Below are positions 95 to 59,743 of a stretch of DNA of 64,000 bases, piece after piece. The notes below the pieces were generated by a model. It did no database searches, was not told the DNA's origin, and was given only the letters and a program-made list of their open reading frames with translations. The DNA lies in the NCBI RefSeq assembly GCF_030028105.1, contig NC_092401.1, positions 8,714,984 through 8,778,983 on the forward strand. Reading direction: 5' to 3'. Position numbers and translations under genes: made by a program. Position 1 is the first letter of the stretch. Each line of letters opens with the position of its first letter. The stretch comes from Mobula birostris (Eukaryota).

Positions 95-1241
95 ATTAAG
101 ATCTTTCTTAGGACTACTAACATACTACAAAGTTTGTTCCTAACCCAGCTAGAAAGCTAAAAACTTCAGATTTTAAAACAAATCAACACACACTGGCAGT
201 TGACAGATCACTGTGAAGAGGCTTTTAAAAACCCAAAGCAGTTTTGTCACAATCTGAAGCACTCATACACTTCCACCTGTCACTGCCCATACAGTTGACC
301 TGCAACCCATCACCCTATAGCGTGGGGGCAGTTATCTCACACATCACTGCATCGGGTGAAGTCCCCAATCGATTTTACTTCAAGGACATCAAGCAAGCCA
401 GAAAGCTACTATGCCCATATTGGGCAGGAAGCACATGCAATTGTCTTTGGAGTTAAATCCATCAAATCTTTAGCTAACAATTTACATTACTGACAGGTCG
501 CCATGACACCAATTTTTGGTCCCCAGGGAGGCATTCCTTCCCCGGTTGTTAGTCAAGTGGAACATTGGGCTCTGTTACTATCTGCACATCAGCATGATGT
601 AAAGTACAAGAGATCCAAGCACCATTTAAATGCTGATGGACCACCCAGACTTCCCTTTGCTGTTAGCTGCAGGGTAAGCCCGGAAGCGCACACGTACTGA
701 AAATGCAGTAACCAAGCCAAGATCTATACATACACCACCAAGAGATGAAATAACTTTATCATCCCTAGGTCGTCCATACACTCACAGGAACAGGCAGACC
801 CCCACCCAATTGAATCACATTTAGTGACTAACCCTTAACACAGAGCAGAATAACCCCCAGGGTTACATCTGGGAATAAAGGCAGTGTATCCGCTTTCCCG
901 AGTTTAGAAAAAAAAAGTTTCGTTGTTGGTTGAATTTGATGATCACTCCATTGTATGTGAAGAGTTCAGCAGCTAGTCTATATATGGGAAGGGGGAGAAA
1001 CCTTTAAAATAAGGGAGGAAGGATATGTTATGTATTCACGTAAATTTTGACCTTACAGGTTGCGATCAAGCTTCCCCACTCGTTACGTACTAAACGTGAT
1101 GATGTAATGAGAGGGGGCATTCTGGGTAGACTTACAAGTATAATAAACTGCGTACATTTTGTTTCATCACCCCCCCCGCCCCCCCAAATCTTTCGTGTGT
1201 TATTTGCGGCCATCTGGTTTTGCAGCACCACAAACATAACA
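95..1241 (+). mobile_element. Degenerate Ty3/Gypsy LTR retrotransposon 3' part (RT-connection/RNase H remnants, PPT, 3' LTR)
   Basis: ORFs 244-456 (LIHFHLSLPIQLTCNPSPYSVGAVISH, a decayed L.CDASPYGVGAVLSH) and 503-700 (WALLLSAHQHDVKYKRSKHHLNAD) match the Gypsy RNase H motifs. A purine tract at about 1010-1025 precedes the LTR. Confidence 0.8.
1026..1241 (+). repeat. Gypsy 3' LTR (216 bp)
   Basis: Starts TGTTATGT (1026) and ends ACATAACA (1241), an 8-bp inverted terminus with TG..CA ends; internal AATAAA at 1142; immediately follows the PPT aagggaggaaggata. Confidence 0.8.
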
Positions 1242-3084: not shown

Positions 3085-4420
3085 CAAAATACACAGAACA
3101 TGCTAGCAGGACTCAGAATCCCTGGAAATGAATAAGCAGTTGATGTTTTGGGCTGAGATCGTTCTTCAGGATTGAGAATGAATGGAGAAGATGCCATAAT
3201 AAAGAGGTGGGGGGGGAGAAGAGAAGGGGAAGGAGGCTAGCTGGAAGGTGCTGGGTGAAGTCAGGTGGGAAAGGTCAAGGGCTGGAGAAGAAAGAAATTA
3301 GTGTCACAGTAGCATTACAAGGGCACAGATATAAATATTTGAAGAGAAGTAGAAAGAATAAACAGAAACAGGCGGGGGTCATCAGTTCCCCGGCTATAGG
3401 TTGACTCATTATAAAGCCGAATGGCAGAGGACAAGAATGACCTCATTTGGAGAAGTGCAGTTATCTTAATCTATTACTAAAAGTACTCCTCTGTTCAGTC
3501 AAGGTGAGAAACCTTGACCAGAATTGCCAGGATTTTCCATAGGGTCCTTTGTTCTACCACAGCCTCCAATGTGTCCAGTTTGACTCCTATAACAGAGTCT
3601 GCCTTTCTAATCAGTTTATTGAGCCTGTTGGCATCACCCCTGTTGATCGTCCGAGAGGAGAGTGAAAAAGAAAAGTGACGGGTAAGTGAGAAGAGGTAAA
3701 AGAACAGATTGGAGAATAGAGGGGACGGGGGATTTACTGGAAGCCATCAGGCTGGAGGGTCCCTAGACAGAATACAAAGTGTTGCTCCCCCACCGAGGGT
3801 GGCTTCATCTTGGCACAGGAGGCGGCCATGGACCGGCACGTCAGAGCAGGAATGGGACTCTGATAAATGTTTAGCTGCTGGGAAGTCTTACTTGTGGCAG
3901 ATGGTGCAGAGGTGCTCGATGAAACTGTCCAATTTACAAATGGTCTCAGCAATGCAGAGGAGGCTGCATCGAGAGCACTGGCACAATCGACAACCCCAGA
4001 TCTGCAGGTGGAGTGTTGCCTCGCTTGGAAGGACTGTTTGGGGCGCTGAATGAATGGAGGTGGTGTATGGGCAGGGGTAGCACTTTGGCCGCTTGCAGAG
4101 TTAAGTGCCGAGGGGATGATTAGCGAGTAGGTACAAATGGACAAGGAAACTGTGGAGGAAGTGATTCTCAGAAAGTGCGGTGGGGGCGGGGGAGAAGTAA
4201 AGAAATGTTTAATGGCAGGATCCCTTTGTAGATGGAAGATGTGTTGGATGCGGAGACTAATGGGGTGGTAGGACAAGAAGAACTCTGCCACCGTTAGGGC
4301 AGTGGGAGGATGGGGTGAGCGTGAATACATGGGAAATGGAAGAGACACGGGTGAGAGCAGCATCAACAGTGGAGGAAGGGAAACCCTGTTCTTTAAAAAC
4401 CATGTCCTGAGAACAGGCAA
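3085..4420 (-). mobile_element. Penelope-like element fragment (GIY-YIG C-terminus plus pLTR), interrupted by a Rex1/Babar 3' fragment at about 3300-3650
   Basis: ORF 3734-4441 ends EQHFVFCLGTLQPDG, the same C-terminus as the other Penelope-like copies here; degenerate hammerhead remnant at about 3137-3175. Confidence 0.65.
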
Positions 4421-5199
4421 AGAAACAGAAGGGAATAGCATTTTTACAAACAGGTTTTTACATTTTTTAACAAAGAATTCAGAAAAGAACTCAGGTGACA
4501 GTGTTATCTATGGTGTCTTGTCAACTTAATAAAAACAGCTTTGTAAAATCATTTGCTTTGGTTCCTGAATGCCTTCAATTGTCTGACAAAACATGTGCAA
4601 TATTTCAGCAGTTTTAACAAGATGTCCCACACAGACACCATCTTATTCAATTGTCTGTGCATCTTTCACACTGCTTTAATATACAGTCCATCGTTCATTT
4701 TAATTAATTACAATGAATCCACTGTTGCTCAGGGTCACACTGAACTCAGGAGCGATCTCAGAATCTACTGTAGTGATTATGACAGCAAGTACAAATCAGA
4801 ATCCCTGCTTTACCCGACTATTTTCGTCAACTTGCACATTATGGGACACAATGGCAGAAAAAAAAATGCTCTTAACCGAGTGGAATAGTACAAGTAGAAA
4901 GGGACAAATAACTACTACATTAAAATTTATTGAGCTGTGTTGTAAAAACGCGGGCATTAAATTTAAATCCTGACCCTGCTCATCATACAATTCTCCCAGT
5001 GTTCGGATAGCAACCTTGTAGATCACCCCACAGAAAGAATACTTAGTTCACCAAGGCCCAAAGTCTGTGCAGAAATCAATACCTTTGTTCTCACCATTCC
5101 TCCCAGTAATCATTTGGAGGCTTGAGCATGAAGTAATCGGACATGGTGCAATGGCCTGTCGCCTAAAAGCACACCACTACCAATTCAGACTAACTTCAC

Positions 5200-5680
5200 C
5201 CAGGACCGCCGGCCGGGTGTCCAGGCCTCGATATATGCAGCCGCCAACACGGGGGCGTGTGGCTCCGCCTATGGGCGGGAAGCGGGTTGAAGCGAGCGAG
5301 GCCTAAAGCCTGCAGTTGCTCGGAGCCGGCCGCGACCGAGACGAAAGGAGAGCCCTAAGCAGCGGCTTGCACACATCCCGGTCCCAAGCAGCGGACCTTC
5401 CTCTCAGTCCCCGACCGCCACGGCGATTGACTCACTGGATCCGGCGCCTTGTCCCAGTGTACCCATCCTCCCAGTCCACCGCTGAACTCCCGCCTCGGCT
5501 TCCCCCACCGCCAGAGCTACGGAACCACTTCGCCCGCTGCCCGAACGGACATCATCACCCACTGCCTTCGGCATCAGCTCATCTGCTCGCAGACCCAGCC
5601 CATTCACTCAATCCCCACTACCTCCCCCCAAGGCCCACACGACCTCTCCGCCCCAAGGCCTAAACCTCCATCCTCTCCCC
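5200..5680 (-). promoter_or_regulatory. CpG-rich region: probable alternative TNPO2 promoter or 5'UTR exon (donor CA|GTGAGT at 5436/5435)
   Basis: Locally high CpG density in an otherwise CpG-poor window; GC-box-like GGGGCGTG and GGGCGGG at about 5251-5280; consensus donor on the TNPO2 strand. Confidence 0.5.
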
Positions 5681-5899
5681 TCCATTCCGGAGCTTTGTGC
5701 TACATGCCCTGCCTTTAGCTATGCCGCCCTCCAACCCCACGCAGACAATCACAGGCCTCAACTCCTGGGGTTCTGTTCAGGCCTCCGCCGTCTCATTCTA
5801 CGACCTAGTCAAAATTACTCCCCTCCACTTGCTCCTCATCCGGCGACCAATATCAGCACCCCACCCCCACACCGTGGAATACACCCACACCGCTTCTAC

Positions 5900-8180
5900 A
5901 CATCCTCCACCTCCCTTACCCTCCAACACCCCTCGTCCTCCACCTCCCTTACTCCTCCTCGTCCTTCACCTCCCTTACCCTCCAACACCCCTCATCCTCC
6001 ACCTCCCTTACTCCTCCTCGTCCTTCACCTCCCTTACCCCCCAACACACCTCGTCCTCCACCTCCCTTACCCCCCAACACCCCTCGTCCTCCACCTCCCT
6101 TACCCAACACCCCTCGTGCTCCACCTCCCTTACTCCTCCTCGTCCTTCACCTCCCTTACCCCCCAACACCCCTCGTCCTCCACCTCCCTTACTCCTCCTC
6201 GTCCTTCACCTCCCTTACCCCCCAACACCCCTCGTCCTCCACCTCCCTTACCCCCCAACACCCCTCGTGCTCCACCTCCCTTACCCCCAACACCCCTCGT
6301 GCTCCACCTCCCTTACTCCTCCTCGTCCTTCACCTCCCTTACCCCCCAACACACCTCGTCCTCCACCTCCCTTACCCCCCAACACCCCTCGTCCTCCACC
6401 TCCCTTACCCAACACCTCTCGTCCTCCACCTCCCTTACCCCCAATACCCCTCATCCTCCACCTCCCTAACCCCCAATACCCCTCATCCTCCACCTCCCAT
6501 ACCCCCAATACCCCTCATCCTCCACCTCCCTAACCCCCAATACCCCTCATCCTCCACCTCCCTTACCCCCAACACCCCTCGTCCTCCACCTCCGACCCCC
6601 CAATACCCCTCGTCCTCCACCTCCCTGACCCCCCAATACTCCTCCTCGTCCTCCACCTCCCTTACCCCCAACACCTCTCGTCCTCCACCTCCCTTACCCC
6701 CCAACACCCCCGTCCTCCACCTCCCTTACCCCCCAACACCCCTCGTGCTCCACCTCCCTTACCCCACAACACCCCTCGTCCTTCACCTCCCTTACCCCCC
6801 AACACCCCTCGTCCTCCACCTCCCTTACCCCCCAACACCCCTCGTGCTCCACCTCCCTTACCCAACACCCCTCGTGCTCCACCTCCCTTACCCCACAACA
6901 CCCCTCGTCCTCCACCTCCCTTACCCCCCAACACCCCTCGTGCTCCACCTCCCTTACCCCCAACACCCCTCGTCCTCCACCTCCCTTACCCCCCAACACC
7001 CCTCCTTGTCCTCCACCTCCCTTACCCCCCAACACCCCTCCTTGTCCTTCACCTCCTTTACCCCCCAACACCCCTCGTCCTCCACCTCCCTTACCCCCCA
7101 ACACCCCTCGTCCTCCCTCCCTTACCCCCAACACCCCTCGTCCTCCACCTCCCTTACCCCACAACACCCCTCGTCCTCCACCTCCCTTACCCAACACCCC
7201 TCGTCCTCCACCTCCCTTACCCAACACCTCTCGTCCTCCACCTCCCTTACCCCCAACACCCCTCGTCCTCCACCTCCCTTACCCCACAACACCCCTCATC
7301 CTCCACCTCCCTTACCCAACACCCCTCGTCCTCCACCTCCCTTACCCAATACCCCTCATCCTCCACCTCCCTTACCCAATACCCCTCATCCTCCACCTCC
7401 ATAACCCCCAATACCCCTCGTCCTCCACCTCCCTTATCCCCAACACCCCTCGTCCTCCACCTCCCTGACCCCCCAATACCCCTCGTCACCTCCCTGACCC
7501 CCCAATACCCCTCCTCGTCCTCCACCTCCCTTACCCCCCAACACCCCTCGTCCTCCACCTCCCTTACCCCCCAACACCCCTCGTCCTCCACCTCCCTTAC
7601 CCCCCAACACCCCTCGTCCTCCACCTCCCTTACCCCCCAACACTCCTCGTCCTCCACCTCCTTTACCCAATACCCCTCCTCGTTCTTCCCCTCCCTTACC
7701 CAATACCCCTCCTTGTCCTCCACCTCCTTTACCCCCCAACACCCCTCGTCCTCCACCTCCCTTACCCCAATATCCCTCCTCGTCCTTCACCTCCTTTACC
7801 CCAACACCCTTCGCCCACAACCTCCCTTACCCCTCATCCACAACTTCCCTTACCCCTCATCCACAACCTCCCTTACCCTCAATATCCCTCATCCTCCACC
7901 TCCCTTACCCCAACACCCTTCGTCCACAACCTCCCTTACCCCTCAATACCTCTCGTCCACAACCTCCCTTACCCTCAATATCCCTCGTCCATAACCTCCC
8001 TTACCCCTCAATACCCCTCGTCCACAACCTCCCTTACCCCAACACCCTTCATCCACAACCTCCCTTACCCCTCAATACACCTCATCCTTCACCTCCCTTA
8101 CCCCCCAACACCCCTGGTCGTCCACTTCCCTTACCCCCAACAACCCCTCCTCGTCCTCCACCTCCGTTACCCCAAACACC
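5900..8180. repeat. C-rich minisatellite, about 33-nt unit CCCCTCGTCCTCCACCTCCCTTACCCCCCAACA with length variants
   Basis: Directly visible tandem array of about 2.3 kb; produces the spurious Pro/Gly-rich ORFs in the ORF track. Confidence 0.95.
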
Positions 8181-8289
8181 CCCATTGCCCAAGCCTCTCC
8201 TCGTCCTCCCCCTCACTTGCCCCCCAAGCCTCTCCTTGCCATCCCCCTCACTTGCTCCCCCACACCTCTCTTAAAGCCCCCCCCAACAC

Positions 8290-8650
8290 CTCTTCTCATC
8301 CTCCACCCACGGCCACCCCACACCTCTCATCCTTTACCCACGGCCACCCCACACCTCTCATCCTTTACCCACGGCCACCCCACACCTCTCATCCTTTACC
8401 CACGGCCACCCCACACCTCTCATCCTCCACCCGCGGCCACCCCACACCTCTCATCCTCCACCCGCGGCCACCCCACACCTCTCATCCTCCACCCACGGCC
8501 ACCCCACACCTCTCATCCTTTACCCACGGCCACCCCACACCTCTCATCCTCCACCCGCGGCCACCCCACACCTCTCATCCTCCACCCGCGGCCACCCCAC
8601 ACCTCTCATCCTCCACCCACGGCCGCCCCACACCTCTCATCCTCCACCCA
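8290..8650. repeat. Second C-rich minisatellite, 31-nt unit CACCTCTCATCCT(C/T)(C/T)ACCC(A/G)CGGCCACCCCA, about 11 copies
   Basis: Directly visible 31-nt period (for example units starting at 8321 and 8352). Confidence 0.93.
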
Positions 8651-8849
8651 TGGCCCCTACATTTCCTCATCCTGGGCCCCACACTCGGACCCTCCAACTC
8701 ATCCTGCTTCCTGGGTACCATATATTCCGTCCACTCCCACCACTTCCTCCTCATGGAACCCGCGGTTCTCTTTCTTTGGTCTGCCTCCAAAGCATCTCAT
8801 CATTACAAATCTGGCCAGCAATCCCCCCCTCTGGAGGGCGAGGAGCCCG

Positions 8850-9300
8850 CCCTCGCCGCTCTCCTTCTCCTCCTCCTCCCTTCGGGCCTATTTGATCCGA
8901 ACTTCTCTCTCCTCCCCTCACCCTTCACATCGTGAGACTCCAGCACGCCACCCACCCCGACCTTCCGCTCCTCCAGCAGATCCTTACCCTCACCCGGTCC
9001 TGCCTCCCTCCCTTCCCCTTTTCACTCACCTCCTTTTCCCTTTTCTCTCGCTCTCTCCGGGTTGCTCGCGCCGCTGCCCTGGACCCGGTTTAAATTCTCT
9101 TCCGCCAATCCTAGCCGCAGCTTCTCTACACGTGACCGTGAGCCTATTCTACCCAGAAGGCGCTGCGCTCCGAGCATGCGCTGTTGGATGAGGGCGGCTT
9201 ACCTCCACTACCCCTCCCCCCCATGCCGTGTTGCTAGGATACGTGCTTGGATCCCCGGCTTCAGCTTGAAGCCCACAGTAGCTGCAAACGGCTAATTATG
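8850..9300. promoter_or_regulatory. CpG-island promoter, probably the main TNPO2 promoter
   Basis: CpG-rich; CCAAT 9105-9109, E-box CACGTGAC 9129-9136, NRF1-like GAGCATGCGC 9172-9181, RFX X-box-like GTTGCTAGGATAC 9230-9242. Confidence 0.65.
9030..9095 (-). other. TNPO2: Putative non-coding first exon of TNPO2 (5' boundary approximate)
   Basis: Strong donor GAG|GTGAGT at 9030/9029 at the edge of a CpG island, directly downstream (minus strand) of promoter motifs. Confidence 0.5.
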
Positions 9301-21908: not shown

Positions 21909-22064
21909 CGCGTGCGCCATGGCAGAGTGTTCCAAAAAAAGAAAATATGAAACGTACGTCAGTCCAGACTACACTAAAGTGTACCCCTGCCTAATAGGGG
22001 TCAAAAATAATGATAGTGTTGCTCGCTGCACTGTTTGCAACAATGACTTTTCTATTGCCCATGG
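21502..22064 (+). mobile_element. 5' fragment of a hAT-like DNA transposon with a GA-rich microsatellite and a BED-finger-like transposase N-terminus
   Basis: Breaks the CR1 at ..ccacagggg|; starts CAGACATCCC with CCCGG/CCCG subterminal repeats; ORF from 21919 MAECSKKRKY..ARCTVCNNDFSIAHG resembles hAT N-terminal zinc fingers; (GA)n-rich tract 21606-21905. Confidence 0.6.
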
Positions 22065-22776
22065 ATATACATGTCAGAATGGGAATGGGATGTGGAATTA
22101 AAATGTGTGGCCACTGGGAGATACTGCTTTCTCTGGCGGACAGAGCGTAGATGTTCAGCAAAGCGGTCTCCCAGTCTGCGTCGGGTCTCGCCAATATATA
22201 AAAGGCACAGCCTTTTGTCTATCCACGGCCTCCTCTACTGTAAAGATGAAGCCACACTCAGGTTGGAGGAACAACACCTTATATTCTGTCTGGGTAGCCT
22301 CCAACCTGATGGCATGAACATCGACTTCTCTAAGTTCCGCTAAGGCCCCACCTCCCCCTCGTACCCCATCTGTTACTTATTTTTATGCACACATTCTTTC
22401 TCTTACTCTCCTTTTTCTCCCTTCTGTCCCTCTGAATATACCTCTTGCCCATCCTCTGGGTCCCCCCCCACTTTGTCTTTCTTCCCGGACCTCCTGTCCC
22501 ATGATCCTCTCGTATCCCCTTTTGCCTATCACCTGTCCAGCTCTTGGCTCCATCCCTCCCCCTCCTGTCTTCTCCTATCATTTTGGATCTCCCCCTCCCC
22601 CTCCCCCTCCAACTTTCAAGTCCCTTACTCACTCTTCCTTCAGTTAGTCCTGACGAAGGGTCTCGGCCTGAAACGTCGACTGCACCTCTTCCTACAGATG
22701 CTGCCTGGCCTGCTGCGTTCACCAGCAACTTTGATGTGTGTTGCTTGAATTTCCAGCATCTGCAGAATTCCTGTTG
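22059..22776 (+). mobile_element. Young Penelope-like element 3' fragment with inverted 5' segment (22059-22208)
   Basis: Forward part encodes SIHGLLYCKDEATLRLEEQHLIFCLGSLQPDGMNIDFSKFR; inverted part encodes LLYIGETRRRLGDRFAEH (GIY-YIG); closely similar to the copy at 59100-59743. Confidence 0.85.
22646..22681 (+). ncRNA. Minimal type I hammerhead ribozyme (Penelope pLTR)
   Basis: AGTC-CTGACGA-A-GGGT CTCG GCCT-GAAAC-GTC-GACT: stem I AGTC/GACT, core CUGANGA and GAAA, palindromic stem III ACGU, GUC cleavage triplet. Confidence 0.8.
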
Positions 22777-25291: not shown

Positions 25292-25657
25292 TTAGTGTTC
25301 CTCCAAACCCAGCCACTGCTCTTTTCTGTCTAATTGCCATTCATCTTCAAGCAGTTCTTCTGGCGATGGCACATAGTGTTTCTCATAGCCAGAGGTGATG
25401 CAGGCTCTTCCTGGTATTTTTGTGCTGACTGGCTTTTCTTCAGGTTGTATATCCTGACCAGTGCAGGTGTGTGGAGAGTTTTCTCCATTCTGAGTTGGTA
25501 TGTTTTTCAGTAACAGATCGTCGGTGTCTAAGCTGTTGGTTTCTCTCAGAGTAAAGCTGTTGCTAGTTGTTTGGGGAACCAGTGTCACAGTCTCTTCCAC
25601 TTTAACAACTTCTGGATCATTCTCAATCATTCCAAAATGGTCTGGAGTGATAAGATT
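25292..25657 (-). CDS. IL27RA: IL-27 receptor alpha, last coding exon (box2 and STAT-docking motif)
   Basis: Acceptor tctactttcag; phase 0; NLITPDHF..DPEVVKVEE..SGYEKHYVPSPEELL..LEEH-stop. Human IL27RA has LPILEVEE and DSGYEKHFLPTPEEL. Confidence 0.88.
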   Translation of the reverse strand, partial: NLITPDHFGMIENDPEVVKVEETVTLVPQTTSNSFTLRETNSLDTDDLLLKNIPTQNGENSPHTCTGQDIQPEEKPVSTKIPGRACITSGYEKHYVPSPEELLEDEWQLDRKEQWLGLEEH

Positions 25658-26444
25658 CTGAAAGTAGATGCAGAGTATTGCAGAGTTAGTATTGGGTTCA
25701 AAGGTAATTTGGTCTCCCATGGAAAATGCATCCTTATTAGCTCAAGCTTTATTCCCCCCTTAATATTCTCCCAACCGTGGTCCCAAACTTGCATATTTCT
25801 TCACCTTCAATCTTCTCTCACCTTATTGGCTCTCTCAACTCTGTTCTCACCAAAATGCTCACTATCAGGTTTACTTCCTAGTTCTCTGTCTAACTCAACT
25901 CCACATCTGGGTCATTATCACTATCTTAAAAAATCTAATTTTTGACACTATCATCTTAGAAAATCACCTCCCCATCTTCATCCTCTCTTCCCTCTCTAAA
26001 GTCCTTGAATATGTTAATGCCCCTCTTAATTCATGTCCCTCTTAACCAGAACTCCTGTTGAATTCCAGACACAAGAGGTATTGCAAATGCTGGAGCAATA
26101 CGAAGAATGTGCTGGAGGAACTCAGCAGATCAGGCAGCATCTATGGATGGGAATAAACAGTTGATGTTTTGGGCCGAGATGAAGGGTTTCAGTCCTGTTG
26201 AAGGGTCTCAGCCTGAAATGTGGGCAATGGATCACACCATCTTCCTCCAAACCACTCCACTGTTTTCCACTCATTCAGGGACTGGCTTCGTTGTTCAGCT
26301 CAGCATAATTCTACCTTCCGAATTCGACCTAGCATTCAGCCATTTCATATAATGAATATTTTCAGTATTTTATGTTAGATTTCCAGCAGTTGTTCCACAT
26401 TCCCTCAGTAACATTTTAGAAACCATTTTATATTTGTATAAATA

Positions 26445-27106
26445 CATGGCTACAAAGGTTGATAGGTGGTTAAGAAAGTTTATGGAATGCTTGCTTTTAT
26501 TCGTCGAGGCATTGAGTTCAAAAGTAATGAGGATATGTTGCAACTTTACAGAACTCTGGTTAGGCCACATCTGGAGTGTTGCATACAGTTCTGGTTGCTC
26601 CACTATTAGAAGGATGCTGAAACTTTGGAGATGATGCAGAAGAGGTTTGCCAGGATGTTGGCTTGTTTAGAAGGCATGTGCTATCACGAGAGGTTGGATA
26701 AACTTGGGTTGTTTTCTCTTGAGCAGTAGAAACTGAGGGGAGATCTGATAGCGGTTTATAAGATTATGAGAGACATACATAGAGGAGTATCTTTCTCTCA
26801 GGGTAGAAGTGTCTAATACCAGAGAGCATGCATTGAAGATGAGAGGAGTAGGTTCAAGGGGAATGTGAGCGGTAAGGTTTTACTCAGAGAGTGCTCTGCC
26901 TGGTATGGTGGTAGAGGCAAATACATTAGAGGCTTTTAAGAGATGTTTAGACAGGCACATGAATATGAGGAAGAAGGAGAAATATGGACATTGTGTAGGT
27001 AGGAGGGATTCATTTTTGGGTTTTTTAAAATTTACTTTTTAGCTGGTTTGGCACAACATTGAGGGATGAAGGGCCTATTCCTGTGTTGGACTGTTCTGTG
27101 TTCTAT
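26445..27106 (+). mobile_element. CR1 LINE 3' fragment
   Basis: Decayed RPHLE..QFW, LRGDLI.VYKIM remnants and ctgttctgtgttctat tail. Confidence 0.75.
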
Positions 27107-27419
27107 ATATGCAAGACTTCTGTTATCTTATGCATTTGACCTTTAATCTCTCCCAGAGCCCACCCTATTCCAGGAAATTATAGCTGAAGAAGAGCAATGT
27201 GCCAAAAATGGTTTCAGGTTAGTACCATTTTCCAGTATTTGGTCCTTAGCCGAAATAGTATTAGCATAACAGCCATTTATAATGTTAGGTTGTGTGTAGT
27301 TTATCATTGATTCGACAGTGTTTCTTCCTACTTATTGTGAATGCCTGCAAGAAAATGAATCTCGTTGTAGTATATGGTGATATGTATGTAGTTTGATAAT
27401 AAGCTCATTTTAACTCTGC

Positions 27420-27680
27420 CATGTACCGTCCCCACCCCAGCTGCGGAAGGAGGAGAGTTGGGCCTGGGGCTAGCAACCCCATCTCATAAAAACGCAAAGC
27501 TACAGAAACCATAAACAGAAGCTCCAAAGGCCTCATCCCTGGGAGAAGAAGGATACACCAAGAAGATGGGCTATGCCTGGAAGCAAGATGAAAGAATGGC
27601 CTGGGACTGAGGACCCGGGTGAGCTACTGTTGGCAGCCTTTTCCCCAGTAGGAGTGATTGGCTTCAGAAGGAGAAGAAAC
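27420..27680 (+). mobile_element. Short non-autonomous RTE-derived (bipartite) element
   Basis: 5' part ggagagttgggcctggggctagcaaccccatctcataaaa..ctacagaaac like an RTE 5'UTR, joined to an RTE ORF-end remnant and a GAA-rich tail. Confidence 0.5.
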
Positions 27681-27736
27681 TTACTTTGAACACTTAAGTT
27701 TTTTGGTTCCTTTCTTCCCAACTTACTTTCTTTTCA

Positions 27737-27837
27737 AGCAACACACTTCAAAGTTGCTGGTGAACGCAGCAGGCCAGGCAGCATCTCTAGGAAGAGGTAC
27801 AGTCGACGTTTCAGGCCGAGACCCTTCGTCAGGACTC
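27737..27837 (-). mobile_element. About 100-nt Penelope pLTR insertion consisting of a hammerhead ribozyme plus 3' flank
   Basis: Near-identical to 22646-22747; flanked by tcttttca at 27729-27736 and 27838-27845 (candidate TSD). Confidence 0.75.
27801..27836 (-). ncRNA. Minimal type I hammerhead ribozyme, sense to the IL27RA pre-mRNA
   Basis: Minus strand reads AGTCCTGACGAAGGGTCTCGGCCTGAAACGTCGACT; intact core and GUC site. Confidence 0.8.
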
Positions 27838-29059
27838 TCTTTTCATTTAACGTTAAGTTACCTTTTGCAGATCCCAGTTCTGATGAAAACCTGATTAACT
27901 TGGGACATTGACTTTGTTCTTCTCTTTACAGATCATAAGTTTCAAGACATATTATATTTTTATATCGGACTTACAGAATCTGAAATGTTTTATTTGTCTT
28001 GGTTTTGAGATTCTTCCGTGGTTTTACCCCCTCTGTATCACAGTAATTTTGAGTCTTCTGACCTCCCTGAGTTATCTTCACTTTTACATTTTCGTTCCTT
28101 TGAGTTAATTGTTTTGTCGAAGACCCAAGCTCAAATTCCCCATGTTCACTTTACCACCCTTTACTACACTATTTTTAAAATGTACTTTTTTTTTTGACAC
28201 AGTCACTAGTTGCCTTTGCCAATTTCTCTTAAGTAGTTTTGTATCAGTATTTTTGTTTCAGAATGCTATGAGGTAACCTGGGATGATTTATTTTCTTACA
28301 GGGGCCATCTGCACACACTGCTGGAATTACTGCCTCCCTGTGCATAGAATAGAGCCCGTTTTCTCTTGCTAATATTCCCTTCCCATTTTCTTCCGAAGGT
28401 GCTCATACTCAATGAGGCGCAAGTTCCAAGGGTATCAGTTACCCACAGTTCTTAACCATGTTGTACAAAGGAGCCCAAACCTTAGGTGAGTTTCTTGCTT
28501 TTTGACAAATCCAAGACGAAATCCTGATAATACTTGGCCCTCTGTAAAAGCTTATTATGTATCTTGCCACATTGATAATGATATCAAAAGGAACTTGTAT
28601 TTTGGTAGGTGTTTCATGACCACATCTTTGAATTTGGCACCTCCCTGGATTAAAAAGATGCTTCCTTCTAATTCCAACATGCAAGAGGCTACTGGGCCCA
28701 TGGGGGTTCGTGCCTGTTCACAGCACAGCAATCACATTAATTCCATTCCGCCTCTCTTTCCTGGAATACCTACAACATATTTTCTCACACATGCCCATCA
28801 ACCCTCATTTAATTCTTTCCTTTATCCCATGCGTAGGAGAATGGGAAGATAATGGAGCACATGCCTGTAAATGGCTGTTACTGAGGACGAAAGAAGAAAA
28901 ATTCGGAGTTGGCAAAATCTTAAAAAGCCAATCTACTACCTTCTCAAGAGTAAAGGCAAAAGAAGGGTCTATAAGAACGTATTAATTTTTCCCCTATTCA
29001 TTGTTTTTATTCATTGAATCTTTAGAGGAGACTTGATTAAAACATGTTCAAGTTCTCAC

Positions 29060-29147
29060 CTGCTGGAGCCGAGTACGGATGATTTCAGGGTCTGGGATTT
29101 TCTGGCAACACCACTGAGGTATCAAGAAGGAGATAAGGCTTTTTATC
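29060..29147 (-). CDS. IL27RA: IL27RA exon, cytoplasmic box1
   Basis: Acceptor ttatttttcag, donor CAG|gtgaga; 88 nt, phase 2 to 0; (R)IKSLISFLIPQWCCQKIPDPEIIRTRLQQ with the box1 W..IPDP motif. Confidence 0.88.
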
Positions 29148-59099: not shown

Positions 59100-59743
59100 A
59101 ACACGAGGAATTCTGCAGATGCTGGAAATTCAAGCAACACACATCAAAGTTGCTGGTGAACGCAGCAGGCCAGGCAGCATCTCTAGGAAGAGGTACAGTC
59201 AACGTTTCGGGCCGAGACCCTTCGTCAGGACTAACTGAAGAAAGAGCTAGTAAGAGATTTGAAAGTGGGAGGGGGAGAGGGAGATCCAGGATGATAGGAG
59301 AAGACAGGAGGGGGAGAGATGGAGCCAAGAGCTGGGCAAAAGGCATATGAGAGAATCATGGGACAGGAGGCCCAGGGAGAAGGAAAGGGGGGAGGGGGGG
59401 GAAACCCAGAGGATGGGCAAGGGGTATAGCGAGAGGGACAGAGGGAGTAAAAGGAGAGAGAAAGAAAGAATGTGTGTATATAAATAAATAACGGATGGGG
59501 TACGAGGGGGAGGTGGGGCATTAGCGGAAGTTAGAGAAGTCAATGTTCATGCCATCAGGTTGGAGGCTACCCAGACGGAATACAAGGTGTTGTTCCTCCA
59601 ACCTGAGTGTGGCTTCATCTTTACAGTAGAGGAGGCCGTGGATAGACATACCAGAATGGGAATGGAATGTGGAATTAAAATGTGTGGCCACTGGGAGATC
59701 CTGCTTTCTCTGGCGGACAGAGCGTAGGTGTTCAGCAAAATGA
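59100..59743 (-). mobile_element. Young Penelope-like element 3' fragment
   Basis: GIY-YIG C-terminus LLYCKDEATLRLEEQHLVFRLGSLQPDGMNIDFSNFR plus pLTR; 14-bp TSD aatgagatagtgta at 59086-59099 and 59744-59757. Confidence 0.85.
59197..59232 (-). ncRNA. Minimal hammerhead ribozyme (GUU site), sense to the IL27RA pre-mRNA
   Basis: Minus strand AGTCCTGACGAAGGGTCTCGGCCCGAAACGTTGACT; core intact, stem II GGGT/GCCC, stem III ACGU. Confidence 0.72.

What the first reader, a model, noticed from the sequence alone, without database searches (positions are those of the whole stretch)
27737..27837. A 100-nt hammerhead-ribozyme cassette inserted in sense orientation in the last intron of IL27RA
Seen: a very short insertion that starts almost exactly at hammerhead stem I, has an intact core (CUGACGA, GAAA, GUC) and a candidate 8-bp TSD (tcttttca), on the strand transcribed as IL27RA pre-mRNA, between the box1 exon and the exon encoding box2 and the STAT motif. 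Inference: cleavage before splicing would separate the signalling tail from the rest of the message, giving ribozyme-dependent attenuation or a truncated decoy transcript. Minimal hammerheads are weak as monomers, so the effect may be nil. It may also represent a tiny non-autonomous ribozyme-bearing retroelement.
Basis: partly seen in the sequence, partly recalled or inferred. Interest (0 to 1): 0.7.

Follow-up and report, generated by a model that had tools for sequence, protein, structure and literature searches.

The report
Penelope retrotransposon stub in receptor intron
This 100-base insert in an intron of a ray's cytokine-receptor gene is real but ordinary: it is the cut-short end of a very abundant Penelope-type jumping gene, and the tiny self-cutting RNA motif it carries is predicted to be inactive on its own, so it likely leaves the host message alone.

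Summary
A 101-base insert with a minimal type I hammerhead lies on the sense strand of the last intron of a gp130-family receptor (likely IL27RA). The 8-base duplication fits an empty site in a relative's contig (31 letters where the window has 140).

The insert is the 5'-truncated, tail-less 3' end (pLTR) of a Neptune-type Penelope-like element. Its first 21 bases occur 45,232 times in the genome. Longer copies carry the reverse transcriptase and GIY-YIG frame upstream.

Regulation is not supported. The motif has no helix III and no intact partner in the intron, and it is predicted to fold with its core paired. Such motifs did not cut as monomers in published tests. Spliced full-length mRNA is present in 4 of 4 RNA-type runs from two carrier species. 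Fully intact copies lie 11 sense to 10 antisense in sampled introns, though looser classes lean weakly antisense (p about 0.06).

One mild point of interest: 5' ends pile up at stem I (2,216 copies, against 149 ten bases upstream), not at the cleavage site. The scan has reported this family on other DNA before.

The parts
27737..27837 (-). Inserted stub: 3' end of the pLTR of a Neptune-type Penelope-like element. It is 5'-truncated at the first base of stem I (27836), tail-less at its 3' end, and has one extra base at 27837.
   Evidence: 97% identical to the 3' ends of longer PLE copies in the window; 1 difference in 104 bases from the majority of young copies
27801..27836 (-). Minimal type I hammerhead motif: 4-bp stem I, CUGACGA, unpaired A, 4-bp stem II opening with G-U, GAAA, palindromic ACGU in place of helix III; predicted cut 27805/27804
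   Evidence: sequence; fold; matches the min-HHR description in PMC4209133
27729..27736 (.). Target-site duplication, left copy (4 bases overlap the element's consensus end)
   Evidence: empty-site arithmetic
27838..27845 (.). Target-site duplication, right copy
   Evidence: organism C contig leaves the window at 27838
25658..29059 (-). Last intron (3,402 bases, GT-AG) of the host gp130-family receptor gene, likely IL27RA
   Evidence: tblastn of P0001; spliced joint in 4 of 4 RNA-type runs
29060..29146 (-). Host exon with the box1-like IPDP motif
25292..25657 (-). Coding part of the host's last exon (box2-like EVVKVEE, GYEKHY tyrosine motif, stop)
59100..59739 (-). Longer young copy of the same PLE end (GIY-YIG C-terminus, pLTR, hammerhead, tail; 14-base duplication). 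It is also sense to the host gene, in an upstream intron.
22052..22776 (+). Young copy of the same PLE end downstream of the gene, with an inverted GIY-YIG piece at its 5' side
26094..26221 (-). Old, broken copy of the same pLTR end in the same intron (core lost, short inverted piece); cannot serve as a dimer partner

Best explanation
The insert is a 5'-truncated, tail-less end of a Neptune-type Penelope-like retrotransposon that landed in this intron with an 8-base target duplication, and its minimal hammerhead is likely silent there, so the intron is likely spliced out with no effect on the receptor.

Shown: family identity, copy number, empty site in a relative, presence in a second close species, and spliced full-length mRNA in carriers.

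Inferred for its origin, from the published PLE model: the element's GIY-YIG domain nicked the target. Reverse transcription began at the inner of two start sites (about +100, hence no tail) and stopped at the first base of stem I, where thousands of other copies also stop.

Inferred for its silence: with no helix III the motif needs a second copy or the PLE protein. Alone it is predicted to fold into a rod that pairs the core (GACG with CGUC). The core is intact because the copy is young (1 change in 104 bases), not because it was selected.
For: Family: longer copies carry RT (DKG, YIDD), a CKRNKCYTC linker and a GIY-YIG domain upstream of the same end (Pfam matches below the curated cut-offs).

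Abundance: 45,232 exact copies of the first 21 bases. 68 young copies in 1.45 Mb sampled, 28 of all 203 hits fully intact.

PLE signatures: 3' ends fall in two groups, 29 of 67 at +95..108 and 30 of 67 at +125..140. 36 of 66 young copies have an inverted partner, and in 15 of 19 pairs one arm has the tail and the other does not. These match PMC8557442 and PMC11167929. Duplications of 8 bases or more flank 8 of 30 solo copies, against 3 of 870 mismatched controls.

Inactivity: single min-HHRs showed no cleavage (PMC4209133). The anole PLE hammerhead cut only with PLE protein, and no RNA-seq reads ended at its site (PMC11167929). The open-core fold has predicted probability 1e-3 to 2e-5.

Host: spliced joint 29060/25657 in 4 of 4 RNA-type runs of two carrier species. 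Intact copies 11 sense to 10 antisense in introns of three CSMD-like genes. 26 of 40 young copies that span the motif are equally intact. No consistent conservation of the motif over its neighbour sequence (p 0.09 one way, 0.23 the other).
Against: Cleavage was not measured, and contigs cannot show RNA ends or levels, so partial attenuation is not excluded.

The orientation test is weak (95% interval 0.30-0.74). Looser classes lean the way that selection against sense copies would predict: core-bearing 20 sense to 28 antisense, against 69 to 49 without a core (p 0.06); young 22:30 against old 67:47 (p 0.065).

Before subfamily sites were removed, the motif looked less mutated than the downstream part (0.9-1.1% against 3.1% at non-CpG sites). 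The flank could extend stem I by 5 pairs in the 110-base fold. The element's transcripts appear abundant in the RNA-type runs, so trans partners may exist. ViennaRNA does not model the tertiary fold.
Confidence: 0.87

Rival explanations
1. Incidental leak: the motif cuts a small share of pre-mRNA when PLE protein is present or when it pairs in trans with another pLTR transcript through the ACGU palindrome. This would slightly lower receptor mRNA without being an adaptation.
For: All core bases are present. The anole PLE hammerhead is protein-assisted (PMC11167929). Two 48-mers are predicted to pair (-31.9 against 2 x -11.8 kcal/mol), though the dimer structure found is not the hammerhead fold. 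Weak antisense lean of core-bearing copies, p 0.06.
Against: Protein binding in the anole element needed the first 172 bases of the ORF, and this stub has no such part. No intact partner in the intron. Fully intact copies lie 11 to 10. Spliced mRNA is present in carriers.
Confidence: 0.07
2. A separate non-autonomous mini-retroelement (SINE- or retrozyme-like) of about 100 bases with fixed ends, which copies itself from its own short transcript.
For: 5' starts peak at +1: 2,216 against 1,197 at +3, 376 at -3 and 149 at -10. 12 of 60 copies that start at +1 are solo and tail-less like this one, about 440 genome-wide by extrapolation.
Against: Of the same 60, 13 are solo with a tail, 2 solo with other ends, and 33 have an inverted arm. 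Their 3' ends scatter from 96 to 110. Short and long copies share the same variants. No tandem repeat of the unit at this locus and no tRNA-like part. Ends are not at the cleavage site (1 of 65 starts within 2 bases of +33).
Confidence: 0.04
3. Domesticated regulatory ribozyme: cutting before splicing removes the box2/STAT exon and gives attenuation or a signalling-dead decoy receptor.
For: Sense orientation in the intron just before the signalling exon. Present in two species. Conserved intronic hammerheads exist in amniotes (PMC6155905).
Against: The insert is recent: absent from organisms whose flanks differ by 7%. It is one of tens of thousands. At one intact copy per 52 kb, a 3.4-kb intron holds a sense copy by chance in about 3% of cases, which means thousands of introns. 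The gene holds a second intact sense copy. A cut 5' fragment has no poly(A) and would normally be degraded (established knowledge). The amniote examples are full hammerheads with tertiary contacts, and even for them proof of a role in splicing is lacking (PMC6765202).
Confidence: 0.02

Closest known systems
Minimal type I hammerheads (min-HHR) in pLTRs of metazoan Penelope-like elements, including fish Neptune (Cervera and De la Pena 2014, PMC4209133)
   Same: Type I core, 4-bp helix I, unpaired base before stem II, palindrome in place of helix III, location in the pLTR, mostly single dispersed copies from truncated PLEs.
   Different: Stem II is 4 bp, not 7-8 as in Schistosoma. G10.1-C11.1 is G-U in this sub-lineage (31 of 45 young copies scored). 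Copy number is far above the 4,000-9,000 reported for coelacanth and Xenopus.
Insertion units of endonuclease-positive PLEs, Neptune clade (PMC8557442, PMC3846280; mechanism for anole Poseidon in PMC11167929)
   Same: RT, Zn-finger-like linker and C-terminal GIY-YIG; heavy 5' truncation; inverted partner arms; optional 30-40-base tail from two RT start sites; 8-14-base target duplications.
   Different: This copy is only the last 100 bases. A sharp peak of 5' ends at stem I is not described in the parts of these papers that I read.
Non-LTR retrozymes of animals (bioRxiv 10.64898/2026.07.22.740005; PMC7229834 seen as a search listing only)
   Same: Small, non-coding, type I hammerhead, PLE-related.
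   Different: Retrozymes are tandem units with a hammerhead in each and make circular RNA. This is a single unit whose ends are set by reverse transcription, not by cleavage.
Conserved intronic ribozymes of amniotes (RECK and CTCL hammerheads, CPEB3 HDV-like)
   Same: Self-cleaving motif on the sense strand of an intron.
   Different: Those are single-copy and deeply conserved, and the hammerheads among them carry tertiary contacts. This is a recent repeat copy without helix III.

Membership tests
PLE minimal hammerhead (min-HHR) | Core CUGANGA and GAAA..UH in type I order | tested here: met
   CUGACGA 27832-27826, GAAACGUC 27812-27805
PLE minimal hammerhead (min-HHR) | Helix I of 4-5 bp, helix II, unpaired base before stem II, palindrome in place of helix III | tested here: met
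   AGUC/GACU, A at 27825, ACGU; stem pair probabilities 0.85-0.97 in the 48-mer but 0.02-0.08 in 300-500 bases of context
PLE minimal hammerhead (min-HHR) | Conserved G10.1-C11.1 pair (typical, not in the descriptor) | tested here: not met
   G-U at 27824/27813; the C form exists in 14 of 45 young copies scored
PLE minimal hammerhead (min-HHR) | Located in the pLTR of a PLE | tested here: met
   the same sequence follows the RT and GIY-YIG frame in long copies
PLE minimal hammerhead (min-HHR) | Self-cleavage (as a dimer or with protein) | not testable with these tools
   needs an in vitro assay
Endonuclease-positive PLE, Neptune clade (parent element) | Single ORF with PLE-type RT and C-terminal GIY-YIG | tested here: met
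   (L043, L102, L017); RVT_1 E 2e-5, GIY-YIG E 3e-4, both under the curated cut-off
Endonuclease-positive PLE, Neptune clade (parent element) | CX2-5CxxC linker between RT and endonuclease (Neptune and Nematis) | tested here: met
   CKRNKCYTC in L043 and CKRNKCCTC in L017; criterion from PMC8557442
Endonuclease-positive PLE, Neptune clade (parent element) | Inverted truncated arm and optional tail | tested here: met
Endonuclease-positive PLE, Neptune clade (parent element) | RT phylogeny placing it in Neptune rather than Nematis | not tested
   no reference PLE proteins were at hand
Non-LTR retrozyme | Tandem units, each with a hammerhead | tested here: not met
   single unit with a target duplication at this locus; tandem arrays elsewhere in the genome were not surveyed (L182 is a direct repeat)
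Non-LTR retrozyme | Ends set by ribozyme cleavage; circular RNA | tested here: not met
   1 of 65 5' starts and 1 of 65 3' ends near the cleavage site; circular RNA not testable
Domesticated intronic ribozyme | Conserved at the orthologous site across distant species | tested here: not met
   empty site in organism E, likely also in C, flanks about 7% different
IL27RA orthologue (host gene) | gp130-family receptor without N-terminal Ig domain, short tail with a distal STAT tyrosine, chr19-type neighbourhood | tested here: inconclusive
   Match to solved IL-27R alpha starts at its residue 7, while gp130 scores higher. DCAF15 lies on the same contig 4 Mb away. No paralemmin match on this contig. 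NCBI name IL12RB2-like. Likeness of GYEKHY to the human Tyr613 motif and the human neighbours are recalled; PMC8099432 passages gave the residue but not its sequence.

The most novel reading that the evidence does not exclude
The hammerhead region sets where Penelope reverse transcription stops, so this family has scattered thousands of ready-made 100-135-base ribozyme cassettes, half of the intronic ones in sense. When PLE protein or pLTR RNA is abundant (for example in the germline), they could act together as a switchable, genome-wide set of pre-mRNA cut sites, this receptor intron among them.
Probability: 0.06. Interest if true: 0.65.

Novelty: new member of a known kind. Interest (0 to 1): 0.13.

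Why it matters
As it stands it matters little: it is one copy among tens of thousands of a described retrotransposon end.

It would matter if it cut, because no intronic ribozyme from a recent transposon copy is known to me to regulate its host gene (recalled, not searched for exhaustively), and this genome would then hold thousands of such sites.

The family is useful as a natural record of PLE mechanism. Two 3' end classes, tail on one arm only in 15 of 19 inverted pairs, and a peak of 5' ends at stem I can be counted at single-base resolution.

Tried and rejected
Rfam scan of the window: 0 matches at gathering score. tRNA-like promoter part: none in 27000-28600.

Cap signature: an extra G before +1 would mark run-off from a capped 5' end. 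Found 679 G against 1,537 A or C, no excess; rejected.

cDNA fold-back as the cause of the 5' peak: the cDNA hairpin is only -2.6 kcal/mol and not among the most stable windows; not supported. In inverted pairs part of the +1 peak comes from AG or AGTC microhomology with the other arm, so the exact base is partly an assignment effect.

Apparent conservation of the motif vanished or reversed once CpG and subfamily sites and alignment ends were removed. A first-pass sense excess of old copies (47:27, p 0.027, half the sample and another reference) weakened to 67:47, p 0.075.

The T-to-A variant of this copy is not a subfamily marker: 1 of 46 in the unbiased sample.

No holder was on record as RNA; four runs guessed as RNA showed spliced joints. 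The bin 27941-28197, just upstream of the predicted cut in transcript direction, had no contig in those four runs; contigs cannot show absence, so this is not counted as evidence.

PALM3 synteny: no paralemmin match on the window's contig. The search for a paper printing the human IL27RA tyrosine motif failed. The search on intron cleavage and exon tethering gave only a reference-list line. The search for hammerhead + Penelope + shark gave 4 papers, none on this family. No 5' pLTR-ORF junction was found in the loci read. Look-ups of earlier findings by sequence and by place were empty.

Full report
WHAT IS THERE. The minus strand at 27836-27801 reads as a type I hammerhead: stem I AGUC/GACU, CUGACGA, an unpaired A, a 4-bp stem II, GAAA and GUC, with the palindrome ACGU where helix III would be. 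The predicted cut is 27805/27804. TCTTTTCA flanks the insert at 27729-27736 and 27838-27845. Rfam reports nothing at gathering score. The 101-mer is no more stable than shuffles.

HOST GENE. The last exon's product is 100% identical to P0001, which NCBI labels interleukin-12 receptor beta-2-like from Mobula birostris. Nine exons in the window map to the minus strand, and the insert lies 1.2 kb into the last intron, 25658-29059. The protein is a gp130-family receptor. Its match to solved IL-27R alpha begins at that chain's residue 7, which fits a receptor without the N-terminal Ig domain, but gp130, LIFR and IL12RB2 score higher. DCAF15 lies on the same contig 4 Mb away; no paralemmin match does. 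That these are human neighbours of IL27RA, and that GYEKHY resembles its Tyr613 motif, is recalled. IL27RA is likely, not proven.

IT IS A TRUE INSERTION, AND RECENT. Contigs of four DNA-type runs were laid on 27000-28600. In organism E one contig covers both flanks with 31 letters between them where the window has 140. The difference, 109, equals the 101-base insert plus one 8-base copy. In organism C a contig matches up to 27838 and then leaves. Organism B has contigs entering the element from both sides. Flanks differ by 15 of 785 in B, 53 of 752 in E and 14 of 202 in C. So the insert arose after the split from E and likely C, and before the split from B. It differs from the majority of young copies at 1 of 104 bases, as its age predicts.

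IT IS THE END OF A PENELOPE-LIKE ELEMENT. Eight matches lie in the window alone. Two are longer and carry the end of a GIY-YIG frame upstream. Sampled loci hold longer pieces with an RT (DKG, YIDD), a CKRNKCYTC linker and GIY-YIG (Pfam E 2e-5 and 3e-4, under the cut-offs). The linker points to Neptune or Nematis (PMC8557442, passages); no tree was built. The first 21 bases occur 45,232 times in the 4.0-Gb genome. In 1.45 Mb sampled (200 kb spread over chromosomes, 1.2 Mb from three CSMD-like genes, and the window) there were 203 hits, 68 young and 28 fully intact. That extrapolates to roughly 190,000 young and 77,000 intact copies (the sample is not random).

ITS ENDS FOLLOW PLE RULES. 3' ends fall at +95..108 (29 of 67) or +125..140 (30 of 67), with 8 elsewhere. 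36 of 66 young copies have an inverted partner. In 15 of 19 pairs one arm has the tail and the other lacks it; one locus contributes two pairs. This is the optional tail of PLEs (PMC8557442; PMC3846280, passages), explained by two internal RT start sites (PMC11167929, parts 1-2 of 4 read). Duplications of 8 or more bases flank 8 of 30 solo copies against 3 of 870 controls. The finding is a solo, tail-less copy.

THE START AT STEM I IS NOT CHANCE, BUT NOT SPECIAL. Whole-genome pattern counts give 2,216 starts at +1, 1,197 at +3, 376 at -3 and 149 at -10 (longer patterns lose a few copies to mutation). Among 60 loci that start at +1 (the first 30 listed in each of two searches), 12 are solo and tail-less, 13 solo with a tail, 2 solo with other ends, and 33 inverted. 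About 440 copies would thus look like this one. Ends do not sit at the cleavage site. Short and long copies share variants. So these are stubs of the parent, not a separate element. The cause of the peak is open. A cap-derived G was not found, and cDNA fold-back is weak. In inverted pairs microhomology with the other arm contributes. An RT stop at the end of the RNA hairpin (-10 kcal/mol) or an RNA boundary remains possible: upstream lies a branch-point-like, pyrimidine-rich, AG-ending stretch, and in Drosophila virilis Penelope the intron ends at helix I.

DOES IT CUT THE HOST RNA? Probably not. In PMC4209133 (parts 1-2 of 4 read) a single min-HHR showed no cleavage and multimers cut weakly. 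In PMC11167929 the anole PLE hammerhead cut only with PLE protein, was not needed for insertion, and left no read ends at its site. Here the monomer is predicted to pair the core with itself; the open-core fold has probability 1e-3 in 48 bases and 2e-5 in 500. The other copy in the intron has lost its core. G10.1-C11.1 is G-U. The GT-AG joint across the intron is in one contig with the neighbouring exons in 4 of 4 RNA-type runs from two carrier species. This shows that full-length message is made, not how much.

SELECTION TESTS. In introns of three CSMD-like genes (strand), fully intact copies lie 11 sense to 10 antisense, all copies 89 to 77. Against my reading: core-bearing copies lie 20:28 and core-less 69:49 (p 0.06), young 22:30 and old 67:47 (p 0.065). 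These are uncorrected, do not hold in the strict class, and need the whole annotation. The motif is not consistently better conserved than its neighbour sequence. 26 of 40 young copies that span it are intact, so an intact core is the norm for this age.

COMPARISON. It is a member of the PLE min-HHR class by anatomy and location; activity is untested. It fails the retrozyme tests of tandem units and cleavage-defined ends (bioRxiv 10.64898/2026.07.22.740005, parts 1-2 of 5 read). It fails the conservation test of amniote intronic ribozymes (PMC6155905 and PMC6765202, passages). Supplements of these papers were not opened; they may list chondrichthyan motifs. My search for hammerhead, Penelope and shark found no paper on this family. 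Earlier notes of this scan, 17 by words and 8 shown, describe the same family with the same verdict; they are unchecked AI notes and not counted as support.

VERDICT. New member of a known kind; interest 0.13.

Noticed in passing
window 27157-27217, 28399-28485, 28838-29042 (+ strand): A spliced antisense transcript runs inside the host's last intron, with GT-AG sites on the + strand and no long open frame. RNA contigs of both carrier species hold parts of it, and one splices across the element. Its upstream exons lie outside the stretch laid.
   Followed up: partly
window 59100-59739 (- strand): A second young, intact, sense copy in an upstream intron of the same gene. It keeps a branch-point-like, pyrimidine-rich, AG-ending stretch just before stem I, so it could act as a cryptic splice acceptor; not tested.
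   Followed up: partly
inverted pairs in L034, L044, L047, L055, L057-L059, L094, L097, L110, L111, L119, L138, L142, L145: In 15 of 19 head-to-head pairs one arm has the tail and the other does not, as if the two RT start sites were used on opposite target strands in one event.
   Followed up: yes
genome-wide, element positions -10 to +3: 5' ends peak at the first base of stem I (2,216), against 1,197, 376 and 149 at +3, -3 and -10; no cap-like G; cause unresolved.
   Followed up: partly
window 5900-8700: A 2.7-kb C- and T-rich degenerate tandem repeat with extreme GC skew (-0.9); long low-complexity frames, no gene recognised.
   Followed up: no
window 25292-64000 (- strand), protein P0001: NCBI names this receptor IL12RB2-like, but it seems to lack the N-terminal Ig domain and ends in a GYEKHY motif; likely a mis-named IL27RA.
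   Followed up: partly
L007 and L017: Two loci on different contigs are identical over 3,100 bases, likely an uncollapsed duplicate in the assembly.
   Followed up: no
L182: A direct repeat of a 73-base piece of the pLTR end puts two hammerhead motifs next to each other, the one arrangement in which a cis dimer could form.
   Followed up: no
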